From Lingula anatina (lineage: Eukaryota > Animalia > Brachiopoda), in NCBI GenBank assembly GCA_051362555.1, contig CM120640.1:16616001-16680000 (forward strand): a stretch of DNA of 64,000 nt. The letters are read 5' to 3'. A program made the translations under genes and the position numbers. Under the pieces are notes generated by a model. That model saw nothing but the letters and a program-made list of their open reading frames with translations, had not been told where the DNA came from and searched no databases. This document shows positions 30,301-42,300 of the stretch, one piece after another (the first letter of the stretch is position 1; the number at the start of each line of letters is the position of its first letter).

Positions 30301-33300
30301 CACCACCACCTTATTATTATTTTTAATGGTAGCTCATCACCCCAACAAAGCATAATTTAAAAAACTGCAAAAAATATTTACTGCCTTTTCTTGTCAGCAA
30401 TTGTTGACTAAAAAGTGGTTTTGATAATAAAAGGTAAATTTTGTGATTTACCCAAACCTGTAAAAGTGAGTGGATGAATATCAAGCCTTCTTCTTAAATC
30501 TGAAACATCTATAAACCACACCTGTTAAAACCTTCTTTCCATCTTGTTATTTAAAAGAGTGCATTGTGCCTTAAGCTTAGAGCAGTTCTATTCATCCACT
30601 GAACTTACCTTGTGCTCCTAACATGGTAGCTTTTACAGTGGACAGGATCTTCAGCTGGGTACCTATGGTGGGGATTCTCTCACACACTTGGAGGAGATTC
30701 TGAAAGAAGAGATTTTATATGAAAGATGAAAAAGAAAAATGCTGTAATTGCCATATAAATTTTTTGCATGTGATTTTACAAAAGAGCTATTTTTTTTTTC
30801 AAATAATTTTTCGATATTTTTCTACTGACAGATGACACCTGTTTCAAATATATTGTTGCATCTTTAAGAAAAAGCAATTTTAAATATGTAACTGCCAAAA
30901 ATTTGTTTCAAATAGACACTGATATGAGACCAGAACAAAGGCAGGATATAATGGACGTGCATTAACCAACTGTAACAATAACAATAAGTAATACAATTCA
31001 CATTGTCCTTCAACTCACTGTTCTCATCTTCTTGTCTGTGCACTCCTGGGCTAGTTTCTTAGCTAGCTTAGTCACCTCCTCGGAGGCCTCTGAAATCTGC
31101 TTAGCTGTAGCTATCAGCTCCTTCTTGGACCCTCCATCACCTCTAGAGAGAGAAAGAGAAGGAAACAAGTGAAGAGAATTAAGGTTTTTATCTACTAAAG
31201 GAGATGAGGGTTACCTTGACAATGGAAATGTTGATAATGTGTATAATAGTTACATTATTAGGATGATATAATTTTGACTGTGGTTTTCAAAACAAGAGAG
31301 GGCATTGGCATGCTGAAATGACACACTGTTTCAGTAATTGTTTCCACACAACAATCAACAGTATGTTATTGGTCATTGTTCTTGATGTGCACGATGTTTC
31401 ACTTACAAAAAAAACTTTAGAAGCTGAAAATCACTGAACTGAAAAGGATCAGTCATCAACAAGTATTCACAAATGTTCATTAATATAAGAAAGCTTTTAT
31501 CCACCACTATTCCACATCATCTGCAAACATTAAATTATTTAAACGGCAATAACAAAGTATCTTTGATAACATTACTGATGTGTAACATTTACACTAAGGG
31601 GAATATAGCTTGCTCTTAACACATAATGATGATGTAAAAGCATCCAAAACGAGTACATTTTTTTTTTAGTGCTTATGTCACTAACCTGACAAGCTGAGAG
31701 AGCTTCGCCATAAGCATTGCCATCCTTTTAGCTGCAGCGATAATCTCATTGTCTTTACTGGACCATTGTTTGACTTCCCTATGTAGAGCATGGGCAGCCA
31801 TCTGTAGAGAGAGAGAGACCATGCCATTTTACATCATAGTCGGTACAAACGTGTATCTAAAAGGGTTGAGAAATTCTAAGTTTAAAATATCACATATCAG
31901 AAAAAGTATAGATGGAATGCTGTTGGGATCAAACAAAAGGTTTTGATCACATAAAAGATGAATGGTCTTGGCGTTATCAACAATTTTTCTCAACATCATC
32001 ATTTTGATCATCAGTTATAAATGTCAATATATTATGTAATAAGCATTTTTGGGAGACCAATTTTTTTTTTTGCACATGGCTAATGGTGTTGTTACATCAG
32101 CACAAGATACCAACAAAAATTAGATTTCAGACAACAAAGCACTCATGAAACATCTCATTAATCTGTGTTTGTGAAAGAAAATATACAAAACGTAGGCCTG
32201 ATGCTAAAATGATGGATAACCCAAAAGAGGGAGGTCAGAACTATGTACCAGGGGACAGCCTTAATAAAAATGTAACTTATAGAAAAAAGACACAATGCCT
32301 GGGTCACCTCAACCATGAAAAAAAAATGAACCTGGCAAACCACAATTTGATTCTATATCCCCAACTGCAAAGAGGAAACAAAGTTTACAAATACAGTTTT
32401 TTCGTGTTTAGTTTTTGCATCTACACAAAACAATTTCACCTAAATCAACAGGTTCTGTCCACACATACTAATCCAACAAAAAATGCAGATTAACAACCTT
32501 TCACTCAACTAATACTATGGTGGATGTCAAAGAAAAAAATCAAGACATGGTATCCTACACATGTGCATCATACATGAATGCAAGACATGACATGCATAGG
32601 TCTTTTTTTTCTTCATATATAACATAATATAAATCAAATACACTTCTCCTCAGCATGGTGCATGTGACATCCATTTATGTTTAACACGTACATCTTGTTG
32701 ACCTAACTGTGGTGTATCTATTACATAAACAACAACCGTACCATAATTGGCTGATTGGCTTGGGGCTCTGGATAACGTCTCTCAAACGTCTCCTCATCCT
32801 CATCATCTGTCTCTGGAGGAGGTGGTCTTGGGGGCACGCTCTCTTGTGGTAGGGGAGGTCTGGGAGGGGCATCTGTAAGTAATTTTAACATAAAATATTA
32901 AAACGGAACCTTTTTCATTGAAGAATGATAACATGCTGCATGCAGGGTTGAACTTCATGCTGCACAATACTATTTCAATGTGGTAAAAACACAGCTGGAG
33001 TTATTTCACTTTCATAATGTTTCAGATACTTACCCACTGTCTGACCTATTCAGTGAAAAATACCATTAAACAGTAATTTTTCTTAATAAAATTAATAATA
33101 AAACATTTTTATCTTGAATCATTCTGATGAAAAAAAGCTGGAAGTTAAATTACAAACAACAACTTGATCAATTTTCAAAGTTTTATCATTTAATAAATAC
33201 TGTAAATTGGAGTGATAACATCTGCAAAAAGCAACAATGAAGAAACATTCTTAACATCAAATCAACATAATATGCCAGCTACAGTGAAATTCAAATAGCA

Positions 33301-39300: not shown

Positions 39301-42300
39301 AAGTGCAATGATAATAATAGCAGTAAAACATATGTGTCAGGAAAGCAAAACATTCGAAACTGTATTATTTTGGATTAAATCAATAGCTGTGATGAAAAGT
39401 AAAGATATTCTGTAATAAGTGCATGAGCTATACTACTGAGCCCAGAAAATATTTCAATTTGCTGAATGCCTGTTGTTTATATATACCCTTTGATTGAAAA
39501 CACCCCTGCAACCTAAATCAGTTAATAAATCAAAATTTTCCAAAATCATACATGGTATTAAAAAACTACCTGGTTCAGCCCCAAGTGTGGGGGTAGGCTC
39601 ATCAATTCCTTCAAAATTAGAACAAAATACTCTCTAAAAGAAGGGGTTGGAGTACTTTTGCTCAAAAGCTATGTATAAAATGCATGCTTTATACATGGAA
39701 TCTTAAATCAATATTGGATCAGAAATGGAATGTTTTGGGCTGGATATGAATTAGAAAAGGATCACTACGAATTTGAGATGATTGAAGATTCTCTGTACAA
39801 AAGATTAGAGGTAGAACTTTACAATATAAGTAACTGCAATGTTAGGTCAGGTAGCATAAGTACAAAGCAATGCATTAAGAAAACATATTTAAAATGCATG
39901 CTATGTTGGATTTTCATTTTCAAAGCAGCTCAATAACTACTATTTTACAAGTGGGAGACAGTTTTCAGTGATAATGAGAAGACTTCAAAAGGAATTCTAA
40001 ATGAGACTCTCTACCTTGTGTTACATTGCTATGATCTGGTACATCATGGCCGCCAGAACCAAAGTAAACTCTTTCTGGATCCAGGTTAAATATTTTCATG
40101 AACTCTGGGTCTGCTAGTATTGGAGATTCTAAAATATCATTGCTAATGTGCCATTTATGGTGCAGTTATAAGAAGTTCTAAGGACTGTCAATATAATGCA
40201 GATGTTATGTATGTTATATCTATGTTATTTAATGATAGTTTTATCTATTTTTCATAATAGCAAATAGCAAGTTCTTGGTGTAAAACAATAACAAAGCTTC
40301 AGTGTGAAAATGCAACTGGTCAAAATGCATTTAACCCTTTTTTCTATTGTACATGTCATCTATAAGGCCACTAGCTAGAGGTCATTGTGAGCAACTGAAA
40401 AAATTTCCACCTGACTGATCTGATTTGATGAATAACAATCAAAAATAGTGAACTTAATCATGCATGCCATCCAAAGTATTTTTCAATCAAAAACTTCTGG
40501 TCCTTTTTTATCATTTTTTCTATATCTTATTTTCACACTCAAGCTCACAGTTATTGCCTTTCTGACAGAAAGATGTGCAGCAAGACATTACTTAAAGCAG
40601 TATAAATACAGTGTATATATAATGTAAGCAAATAATACATTTATCATTATAGCAGACAAAATGCACACCATAACCTTATTCACTAAATAAAATTGGATGA
40701 AAAATAAAGGAGAAGTGATTCTAATTTAAATACATGTAAGACTGCACTCTTATGTCAAATGCATATTAAAAGCATCTACATGTATTCACTGCAAACATCT
40801 ACACTAGTTCTATATATGCAACCATATCAGCTCAAGATGCAGCAAGATATATATATATATATATATATTTACAATGTCAATCATTGTGCAATATGGAATG
40901 AAATCATCACCAATGTCATCTCTGAAACAAATCAGGGTAATGATATGATAGTATATCGCAAGTGAACCTCATCCTACCTAGACGGAGTTGACTCAGATCT
41001 GGAGGTGGAGGGAATTCTGCCTCTTCGACCACGCCACGAACACCCTGCACGCCATCTATTAGCTGAAATATAAATCACCAAAATTATAATTATCATGTTC
41101 TGATATAATTGCACTACTAACACAAATGACTTCACAATTAAAACACTTTGGGGTCTTATGAAATATGGATAAGTTTTAATCAAACTACTTTCAGAAACAA
41201 ACATGTAGCTGATGATGTTTGTACTTCAAAAAGTACACTTCATAATTGATATAAATGTGATAAACACCACATATTAAAGGGAGTGTTAAAATAATCATAC
41301 ATAACCAAAGTAAATAGTACAAATATAATTCAACCAAGACCAGTAAAGGCACTTTACCCTATTGTTTGAGGCCCTCCAATTGTTTGCAGCACTGGGATCT
41401 CTGGGATTGGAGGCTAAAATCTTAGCATCCCTCACCATGGGGGCTATGCCTGGAAAATAGACATAATCATGGAGGTCAAATTCTATCTGGATTTAGAGTG
41501 AGAAAAGATAGAACATGTGTGCAGAAGAATATGTGGTGACTGAAGTCAATTGGGTTTTGACTCAAATTTTCATAGCAAGAAATGACTACCATAAAATATG
41601 CAATCACATTAGTCACACTTACTGGCCTTAAGGTTTTCAGTAGCAGAGCCAACTTTCTGCACATATGCAGGGTCTTCACTGTTCTCTGCCTCTTTTTCGC
41701 CAGCCTGTACCACACGGTTTGCCAGACGAGCTATGTTTGAAGTGTTACTAACTATGCCCTGGGCATCTCCCCTCTTGATGGCACTCTCTGTCTTCTCTGT
41801 GTCTCTGAGAATGCCCTCCTCTGAAACCATCATGATTATCATTTTCAATACAACTGAGGCTATATATAAATTCAAACACTTTTTGCTTGCTGGAAAAGAA
41901 TTTGAGCCTCAAAAATTCTCCATAATATTAGGCAACATATGACCAGAGTTTGCCTCCAAAATGACAAAAAGACTTATCTAAAATTTATTAATTTTCTTTT
42001 TTAAAAACAACCAATATCTTCTAGCAGTAAAGAAAGTAATCAAATTGTAGCAGTTGTCCTATCATTTCTAAGTCACATCTCCAGTAATGATGCCTCTCAT
42101 CACTGCTCAAAACAATCTGTTTTCCCAACATTTCTAAGTCACACCTAAAGCAATTAACACAATCTGTCTCACCTGCTGCTTTGATCAGTGCCACAGTGTC
42201 TGTAGCCTCATCTACCAGCCCTCTCAGTTTCTCCATATTGTCTGTCCATTGTTTCTTCATGAGGTCAAAGTTTTCCTGGGCTGCCTGGTTCTGGGGGTTC

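What the first reader, a model, noticed from the sequence alone, without database searches (positions are those of the whole stretch)
32873..40977. Hidden array of ~9 symmetric cassette exons in the vinculin proline-rich hinge
Seen: the 8.1-kb phase-1 intron between exons 16 and 17 holds at least nine AG/GT-bounded segments of 114, 39, 57, 210, 72, 48, 105, 438 and 12 nt. Every one is a multiple of 3, enters and exits in phase 1, has no stop, and most are GC-richer than the intron. Several encode ligand motifs: YPPPPPPLP (EVH1-type), P10 (profilin-type), and PPVAPKP / PPVPPKP (class II SH3). All together they would add ~365 aa to a 955-aa protein. Known: the vinculin hinge binds VASP, vinexin/CAP and Arp2/3, and the well-known vertebrate splice variant (metavinculin) inserts in the tail rather than here. 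Inference: a combinatorial, tissue-regulated modular hinge that tunes partner recruitment and head-tail distance, for example in muscle attachment.
Basis: partly seen in the sequence, partly recalled or inferred. Interest (0 to 1): 0.85.

Follow-up and report, generated by a model that had tools for sequence, protein, structure and literature searches.

The report
Optional exons in brachiopod vinculin hinge
The lamp-shell gene for the cell-adhesion protein vinculin splices at least five optional exons into the flexible link between its head and tail, in a fixed order that differs between samples and is likely set by the muscle/nerve splicing factor RBFOX; public gene models of many molluscs and arthropods show optional segments at the same spot, so it is a widespread feature, not a one-off.

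Summary
The window is the vinculin gene of Lingula anatina or a very close relative (minus strand). All nine segments exist as described, but that pattern alone is chance-level: 475 such segments occur in this intron. RNA reads from 8 runs confirm five cassettes (114, 72, 48, 105, 438 nt) and the all-skipped form, with sample-dependent use. The 57(54)- and 210-nt segments rest on a RefSeq model that already holds 7 of the 9. The 39- and 12-nt segments have no read support. Splicing looks ordered, not freely combinatorial: every included form seen passes through the 72-nt exon. New here: RBFOX elements (TGCATG) lie just downstream of 6 of 9 cassettes and of a further 39-nt tail exon, and of no other regular exon within 100 nt; and the first cassette shares a [DE]FxxIF motif with arthropod and some mollusc first cassettes (moderate evidence). 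Isoform records vary at this hinge point in 37 of 40 genus groups checked. The scan reported the same thing before in an arthropod and a sea urchin. My searches found no paper on it. Tissue and binding partners are untested.

The parts
40978..41062 (-). Constitutive exon 16; ends with [12 protein letters not shown] (aromatic-PPPP, EVH1-type site, label recalled)
   Evidence: junction reads
40015..40128 (-). Cassette 1, 114 nt, confirmed; carries EFMKIF, the motif shared with arthropod and some mollusc first cassettes
   Evidence: E16>114 8 reads, 114>72 11 reads; both RefSeq models; motif
39570..39608 (-). Candidate 39 nt, unsupported (weak acceptor, no GCATG within 350 nt downstream); probably chance
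   Evidence: no joint row in 8 runs; in neither RefSeq model
39208..39264 (-). Cassette 57/54 nt with tandem acceptor; probable, rare
   Evidence: RefSeq XP_013410992.1 uses 54 nt; TGCATG at +101; no joint row
37934..38143 (-). Cassette 210 nt, acidic spacer; probable, rare
   Evidence: RefSeq XP_013410992.1; TGCATG at +33 and +190; 6 sense reads at 38108 in one run but no joint row
37309..37380 (-). Cassette 72 nt, confirmed, hub of all included forms; YPPPPPPLP (F in place of Y in the diverged samples)
   Evidence: 72>E17 47 reads in 7 of 8 runs, E16>72 41 reads in 7 of 8 runs; TGCATG at +19, +176, +334; variant
36435..36482 (-). Cassette 48 nt, confirmed on its acceptor side; ten prolines then SKPRE
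   Evidence: loose ends 72>48, 6 reads in each of two runs; RefSeq; TGCATG at +85
35413..35517 (-). Cassette 105 nt, confirmed; PPVAPKPP and a short helix-like end (LLDELM)
   Evidence: 105>E17 34 reads in 2 of 8 runs, 105>438 3 reads; no GCATG within 350 nt downstream
33879..34316 (-). Cassette 438 nt, confirmed; basic and Pro-rich, five RxP[MT]SP repeats, 11 SP/TP, class I and II SH3-type patterns
   Evidence: 438>E17 12 reads in 3 of 8 runs; TGCATG at +17
33034..33045 (-). Candidate 12-nt microexon (GQTV), unproven; strong GTAAGT donor and three GCATG downstream, which also lie just upstream of exon 17
   Evidence: no inserted-letter row among 107 independent junction starts into exon 17
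32742..32872 (-). Constitutive exon 17; APPRPPLP and PPRPPPP (region matching the vertebrate vinexin and Arp2/3 sites, position recalled)
   Evidence: junction reads
29875..29913 (-). Exon 21, 39 nt, symmetric phase 1, in a tail loop; likely a second optional site
   Evidence: same 13 aa absent from isoforms of Owenia, scallop, snail and horseshoe crab; TGCATG at +20 and +94; not covered by the read lays
27143..58543 (-). Vinculin coding span, 22 regular exons, 968 aa
   Evidence: Pfam PF01044 E 2e-163

Best explanation
The intron between exons 16 and 17 of the Lingula vinculin gene holds at least five, and probably seven, frame-preserving optional exons that are spliced in a nested order and in sample-dependent amounts, likely switched on by RBFOX binding just downstream of them in muscle or nerve, which would add proline-rich docking sites and length to the disordered head-tail hinge. 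Shown: skip, 72 alone, 114+72, 72>48, 105>exon 17, 105>438>exon 17. Inferred: 48 and 105 travel together (48>105 is hidden by repeat masking, but no other junction into 105 was listed although 34 reads leave it for exon 17), giving about seven forms: skip, or optional 114 plus 72, 72-48-105 or 72-48-105-438. Inferred: RBFOX promotes inclusion; the 105-nt exon, which has weak sites and no element, follows its neighbour. Inferred from known families: the inserts fall between the FPPPP site of exon 16 and the SH3/Arp2/3-type sites of exon 17, so inclusion would move these apart (24 to about 260 aa in the read-supported forms) and add an EVH1-type site, a polyproline run, SH3-type sites and SP/TP phosphosites, raising recruitment of actin regulators without touching the folded head or tail. 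The optional site is shared across protostomes; most cassette sequences are lineage-specific, but the first cassette likely descends from a common ancestral exon with a [DE]FxxIF helix that binds an unknown partner.
For: Junction reads into exon 17 over 8 runs: skip 41, 72-nt 47, 105-nt 34, 438-nt 12 of 134 reads (107 independent starts); one run 0 of 38 skipped, another of the same study 4 of 5. RefSeq models hold 7 of 9 and 2 of 9 cassettes. TGCATG: 12 in the intron against 4.5 in dinucleotide shuffles (0 of 500 reach 12) and 1.48 against 0.64 per kb in the other 20 introns (p 0.03; GCATG p 1e-4); 6 of 9 cassettes have one within 150 nt downstream (p 0.0035; p 0.004-0.03 over four window sizes), none upstream; 1 of 21 regular donors has one within 100 nt, and that is exon 21, optional in other protostomes. 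RBFOX1 promotes metavinculin exon 19 from a downstream motif (PMC12490864, passages); fly and vertebrate Rbfox read UGCAUG (PMC8742874, passages). 37 of 40 genus groups show two or more fills at this hinge point. A profile from 17 arthropod segments ranks the 114-nt exon 2 of 28,564 six-frame windows (all 26 columns) or first (core columns); shuffles reach it 9, 0 and 1 times of 300. AlphaFold2: hinge disordered except residues 754-759, the EFMKIF helix.
Against: No tissue labels, so muscle or nerve is not shown. No binding of RBFOX or of any partner was tested. Three of the nine, including two confirmed exons (114, 105), lack TGCATG within 350 nt; seven motif types and four window sizes were tried. 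Depth is low (53-213 reads per run), so rare junctions are invisible and the nested order may be incomplete; the RefSeq chain with 54 and 210 shows other forms are at least predicted. An HMM from the same 17 arthropod segments did not find the Lingula exon or any mollusc cassette; single-sequence phmmer hits to it were weak (E 0.2-1.1); I chose the motif after seeing it; only 4 of 17 mollusc/annelid test proteins have it as best window. The other species' isoforms are automated predictions, and shared intron position is read from protein alignments, not from their genomes.
Confidence: 0.68

Rival explanations
1. Real and regulated, but mainly a length or spacer effect: what matters is how long and disordered the hinge is (distance between binding sites, tether length), and the motifs arise because proline-rich disordered sequence makes them easily.
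For: Cassette sequences differ widely between lineages; no Pfam match for 4 of 4 cassette peptides tested; the 210-nt and 57-nt segments carry none of the proline ligand patterns scanned; echinoderms place a Pro-rich optional insert one junction upstream instead.
Against: Within molluscs and within arthropods particular cassette motifs recur across classes (PPPPVPPPP..YY, VPDQ, SPLPKWARG, FxxIF); Y to F at the aromatic-PPPP position in the diverged samples is conservative.
Confidence: 0.17
2. A permissive intron: phase-1 symmetric exons in a disordered linker are tolerated, arise repeatedly and are near-neutral; similar arrays and the FxxIF likeness in other phyla are convergence or chance.
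For: 475 chance candidates exist in this intron; HMM test of cross-phylum homology failed; several cassettes are rare or unseen in reads.
Against: Inclusion reaches 38 of 38 reads in one run; RBFOX elements are placed on one side only; 5 of 8 listed variants in cassettes are synonymous (p 0.04-0.08, weak); motif sits in the first cassette in three phyla.
Confidence: 0.1
3. One reading: all nine exons are real and combine freely, giving hundreds of hinge forms.
For: Scallop records show 15-17 distinct fills, so wide combination exists elsewhere; the 12-nt candidate has a strong donor and downstream GCATG; only 6-30% of each run was read.
Against: 9 of 21 junction types seen; none for 39, 57, 210 or 12; 12-nt inclusion below about 3% in these samples.
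Confidence: 0.05

Closest known systems
RefSeq Lingula anatina vinculin models XP_013410992.1 and XP_013395141.1
   Same: Same gene; the first holds 114, 54, 210, 72, 48, 105 and 438, the second 114 and 72.
   Different: Each is one fixed chain; neither shows skipping, order, sample differences or regulation; neither has the 39- or 12-nt segment.
Multi-isoform vinculin records of molluscs, an annelid and arthropods (e.g. Mizuhopecten X1-X19, Eriocheir, Periplaneta, Tachypleus, Owenia)
   Same: Optional Pro-rich segments at the same point between PPPPDLxxL and APPRPPLP; first cassette often has [DE]FxxIF.
   Different: Most cassette sequences are not alignable to Lingula's; the Lingula total (up to about 350 aa) is longer than any fill seen there (at most about 155 aa among grouped proteins).
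Vertebrate metavinculin (VCL exon 19)
   Same: Optional exon in vinculin, promoted by RBFOX1 from a downstream intronic motif, mostly in muscle (PMC12490864 passages).
   Different: One 68-aa exon in the folded tail that changes actin binding; here several exons in the disordered hinge. PMC2904371 (passages) calls metavinculin the one confirmed splice variant of VCL.
Echinoderm vinculin Pro-rich optional inserts
   Same: Optional Pro-rich segments between head and tail (44-aa difference between Lytechinus isoforms).
   Different: Inserted one junction upstream, before the last helix of the head and the PPPPD motif; no insert at the Lingula site in the 4 Lytechinus, 1 sea-cucumber, 1 amphioxus and herring proteins inspected.
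C. elegans deb-1 isoforms a-h
   Same: Invertebrate vinculin with several isoforms (PMC6527391 passages).
   Different: Described as alternative starts, short forms and minor changes; no hinge cassette array in the passages seen; its supplement was not read.

Membership tests
Vinculin | Vinculin family domain with helical head and five-helix tail | tested here: met
   PF01044 E 2e-163; 98% to RefSeq Lingula vinculin; all-helical model, mean pLDDT 82.5
Vinculin | Disordered proline-rich linker between head and tail | tested here: met
   pLDDT under 50 at 733-753 and 760-829
Symmetric cassette exon | Both inclusion and skipping junctions in RNA, frame kept | tested here: met
   114, 72, 48, 105, 438 and the all-skip junction
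Symmetric cassette exon (57/54 and 210 nt) | Inclusion junctions in RNA | tested here: inconclusive
   No joint row in 8 runs; present in a RefSeq model whose read support I could not see
Symmetric cassette exon (39 and 12 nt) | Inclusion junctions in RNA or a gene model | tested here: not met
   No joint or inserted-letter row; in neither model; low depth leaves rare use open
Metavinculin-type isoform | Insert in the tail domain replacing its first helix | tested here: not met
   Inserts lie in the hinge upstream of the tail; definition from PMC12490864 and PMC2904371 passages
RBFOX-activated exons | (U)GCAUG enriched in the intron downstream of the exon | tested here: met
   6 of 9 within 150 nt, p 0.0035; 0 upstream; 1 of 21 regular donors within 100 nt
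RBFOX-activated exons | RBFOX binds and inclusion depends on it; muscle or nerve bias | not testable with these tools
   No CLIP, knock-down or tissue labels
EVH1 ligand (pattern recalled) | Aromatic residue followed by PPPP | tested here: met
   72-nt exon, Y in the window and F in diverged samples; binding untested
Class II SH3 ligand (pattern recalled) | PxxPx[RK] | tested here: inconclusive
   Met in the 48- and 438-nt exons, not by PPVAPKP of the 105-nt exon; binding untested
Homologue of the arthropod first cassette | Significant sequence similarity at the same position in the array | tested here: inconclusive
   Substitution-matrix profile yes; HMM no

The most novel reading that the evidence does not exclude
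Protostomes have carried, since the common ancestor of brachiopods, molluscs and arthropods, an RBFOX-driven splicing programme for vinculin that is the invertebrate counterpart of metavinculin: a modular hinge array headed by a conserved [DE]FxxIF exon that binds an unknown partner, plus a conserved 13-residue optional exon in the tail. It has gone undescribed because vertebrates lack it.
Probability: 0.35. Interest if true: 0.65.

Novelty: new variant of a known kind. Interest (0 to 1): 0.42.

Why it matters
Vinculin is treated as a protein with one confirmed splice variant. If this holds, most protostomes tune it at a different place, the partner-binding hinge, under the same splicing factor that controls metavinculin, which would be a case of convergent muscle/nerve adaptation of a core force-bearing protein. 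It also points to an unrecognised short motif kept for over 500 million years (age recalled) whose partner can be fished for. The limit: the exons already stand in public annotations of many species, optional exons in disordered linkers are a common theme, and no function is shown.

Tried and rejected
No whole genome was held for this window, so no genome-wide RBFOX background and no check for a second copy; the two RefSeq models lie on different scaffolds and are near-identical, which I read as haplotypes (inference). Splice-site scores cannot pick the true exons: the confirmed 105-nt exon ranks 63 of 475 (one of 21 training acceptors was set 3 nt off in that call and corrected from then on). 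phmmer of 72 distinct mollusc/annelid inserts gave only proline-run hits and weak hits to the 114-nt exon. The arthropod HMM failed (Trichonephila dropped by a parsing miss, 17 of 18 used). QKI, MBNL, CELF and ESRP motifs were not enriched; YCAY enrichment vanished once exons were removed. The joint 37994 to 33302 is on the opposite strand with 20-21 matching letters and foreign flanks: another transcript, rejected. The row 37377-40975 has the same skip length as E16>72 and was counted as that junction. A complex prediction of the 114-nt peptide on vinculin's own head and tail was not available, so self-docking is open. Likenesses to LIR, paxillin LD, WH2 and zyxin motifs are recalled leads only, not tested. 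Ten literature searches found no paper on invertebrate vinculin hinge exons; one search was too loose to be useful; subscription journals and supplements were not seen.
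Full report
Identity. The window holds a vinculin gene on the minus strand, 22 regular exons from 58543 to 27143, 968 codons. One exon used as query matched two RefSeq proteins of the brachiopod Lingula anatina at 98%, among 3 hits from 42 candidates. No whole genome was held.

The observation. All nine segments are where and as described. 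The description alone is not evidence: 475 symmetric stop-free AG..GT segments can be enumerated in this intron, 59 per kb against 48 per kb in 17 kb of the gene's other long introns, and a splice-site matrix trained on the gene's own sites gives 14 acceptors at 10 bits or more against 9 expected. The nine are GC-richer (0.40-0.62) than the rest (0.325).

RNA test. Nine raw-read RNA runs were listed by species label; eight were laid, 6-30% of each, giving 53-213 reads per run on the stretch. Junctions into exon 17 came from exon 16 (41 reads), the 72-nt exon (47), the 105-nt exon (34) and the 438-nt exon (12), 134 in all or 107 independent starts. Also listed: exon 16>72 (41 reads), exon 16>114 (8), 114>72 (11), 105>438 (3), and loose ends running from the 72-nt donor into the 48-nt exon (6 reads in each of two runs). 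The 48-nt exon is masked as a repeat, so 48>105 could not be listed. No row supports 39, 57, 210 or 12; rows need three reads, so rare use is not excluded. Use differs by sample: 0 of 38 skipped in X4, 6 of 38 in X5, 4 of 5 in X6, all one study (permutation p 5e-4 on starts within that study, 1e-4 over all eight). Three runs diverge from the window (mostly 90-99% alike, with a 6-nt in-frame insertion in exon 16) and still show skip and 72-nt inclusion, with single reads for 114>72 and 438>exon 17. Nine of 21 possible forward junction types were seen, and every included form passes through the 72-nt exon: a nested series, not free combination, at this depth.

What is already on record. XP_013410992.1 holds seven of the nine (114, 54, 210, 72, 48, 105, 438) in one chain; XP_013395141.1 holds 114 and 72. 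In the 120 best hits of each of two searches and in cluster members, isoform records differ at exactly this point: 126 of 150 parsed (191 examined) in the mostly mollusc set and 98 of 114 parsed (120 examined) in the arthropod set have an insert over 10 aa (the searches favour such forms and the parser missed the clams). Of 40 genus groups that I assembled from named records with two or more proteins, 37 show two or more fills differing by 6 aa or more; Littorina, Haemaphysalis and Lytechinus do not. The deuterostome proteins inspected have no insert here; echinoderms insert one junction upstream. These are automated models, and shared intron position is inferred from protein alignment. The scan's own notes list the same finding in an arthropod and a sea urchin; a look-up by sequence found none.

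Regulation. Seven splicing-factor motif types were counted. TGCATG, the RBFOX element, occurs 12 times on the sense strand (7 antisense), against 4.5 in dinucleotide shuffles (0 of 500 reach 12) and about 5 expected from the other 20 introns (p 0.03; 0.013 with exons removed; GCATG p 1e-4). Placement is one-sided: six cassettes have it 17-101 nt downstream of the donor (57, 210, 72, 48, 438, 12), p 0.0035 for a 150-nt window and 0.004-0.03 over four windows, and none lies in the upstream windows. Of the 21 regular donors only exon 21 has one within 100 nt (two, at +20 and +94), and the same 13 residues are optional in Owenia, scallop, snail and horseshoe-crab records: an internal control that was not chosen for the test. 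Against: 114, 39 and 105 have no TGCATG within 350 nt, and the sites after the 12-nt candidate also lie just upstream of exon 17. RBFOX1 promotes metavinculin exon 19 from a downstream motif (PMC12490864, passages), and fly and vertebrate Rbfox recognise UGCAUG, which is enriched beside muscle exons (PMC8742874, passages). RBFOX control in Lingula is therefore likely but inferred.

A conserved motif. The 114-nt exon encodes [10 protein letters not shown]. Arthropod first cassettes read [DE]FxxIF[NK][VM]DFxxIF (decapods DFMKIF), and scallops, venerid clams and Pomacea have EFxxIF. The pattern [DEN]Fxx[IMV]F is in 52 of 98 arthropod and 25 of 126 mollusc-set inserts. A substitution-matrix profile from 17 arthropod segments ranks the Lingula exon 2 of 28,564 six-frame windows of the whole 64 kb with all 26 columns, and first with the two core column sets; within the intron it is first and shuffles reach its score 9, 0 and 1 times of 300. 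An HMM from the same segments missed it and the mollusc cassettes, single-sequence hits were weak, only 4 of 17 mollusc/annelid test proteins have it as best window, and I saw the motif before testing it. Homology is probable, not proven. In the AlphaFold2 model of the 114+72 form (80 sequences) the hinge is disordered except residues 754-759, this motif, modelled as a short helix at about 50 pLDDT; that is weak.

Likely working. The inserts fall between the FPPPP of exon 16 and the [15 protein letters not shown] of exon 17. The vertebrate linker binds Arp2/3, lost in P878A (PMC12152658, passages) and vinexin (a reference title in PMC10752531); VASP binding to FPPPP is recalled. Inclusion would separate these sites and add an aromatic-PPPP site (72 nt; Y becomes F in the diverged samples), ten prolines (48 nt), SH3-type patterns and eleven SP/TP sites (438 nt). 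None of four cassette peptides matches Pfam. Five of eight listed variants inside cassettes are synonymous (p 0.04-0.08; many lower-ranked variants were not shown). A pure spacer role and near-neutral tolerance remain as rivals.

Literature. Ten searches found no paper on these exons. Passages read: PMC2904371 calls metavinculin the one confirmed VCL variant; PMC5201009 on fly vinculin has no occurrence of 'isoform' in its main text; PMC6527391 describes deb-1 isoforms from alternative starts and short forms. Other hits were seen as listings only. No supplements were read, and subscription journals are not covered.

Verdict. A real, sample-regulated array of at least five and probably seven hinge cassettes; two candidates unsupported; mostly present in public models and shared across protostomes; the ordered splicing, the RBFOX signature and the conserved first-cassette motif are the additions. 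Interest 0.42.

Noticed in passing
window 29875-29913, minus strand: 39-nt symmetric exon 21 in a tail loop; its 13 residues are near-identical in Owenia, scallop and snail, similar in horseshoe crab, and optional in all four; two TGCATG follow it. Skipping in Lingula was not tested.
   Followed up: partly
window 41018 (exon 16): Three runs of one study carry a 6-nt in-frame insertion and are mostly 90-99% alike to the window: a diverged population or a second species under the same label.
   Followed up: no
window 39261-39264: Tandem acceptor; the RefSeq model uses the downstream AG (54 nt).
   Followed up: partly
window 40074-40015, 34316-34152, 34727-34716: High-scoring alternative boundaries (inner acceptor of the 114-nt exon, inner donor of the 438-nt exon, a 12-nt segment with a strong acceptor); none has a joint row in the reads.
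   Followed up: partly
window about 59839-60877, plus strand: Fragmented reading frames that look by eye like a Tc1/mariner-type transposase upstream of the gene; Pfam gave only sub-threshold helix-turn-helix hits on the first piece and none on the other five.
   Followed up: partly
window 20285-20532 and 57227-57778: Copies of a short element with inverted arms (93-95% alike), MITE-like; one set lies in vinculin intron 1. Other inverted or tandem repeats at 6677-6945 and 15270-15795, and a dispersed repeat at 2949-3117 and 47232-47399.
   Followed up: no
reads at window 33302-33322 and 37972-37994: An abundant transcript from elsewhere matches two 20-21 nt stretches on the opposite strand and appears as a false back-joint.
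   Followed up: partly
proteins P0130, P0278, P0127: Echinoderm vinculins carry a long Pro-rich, partly optional insert one junction upstream of the Lingula site.
   Followed up: partly
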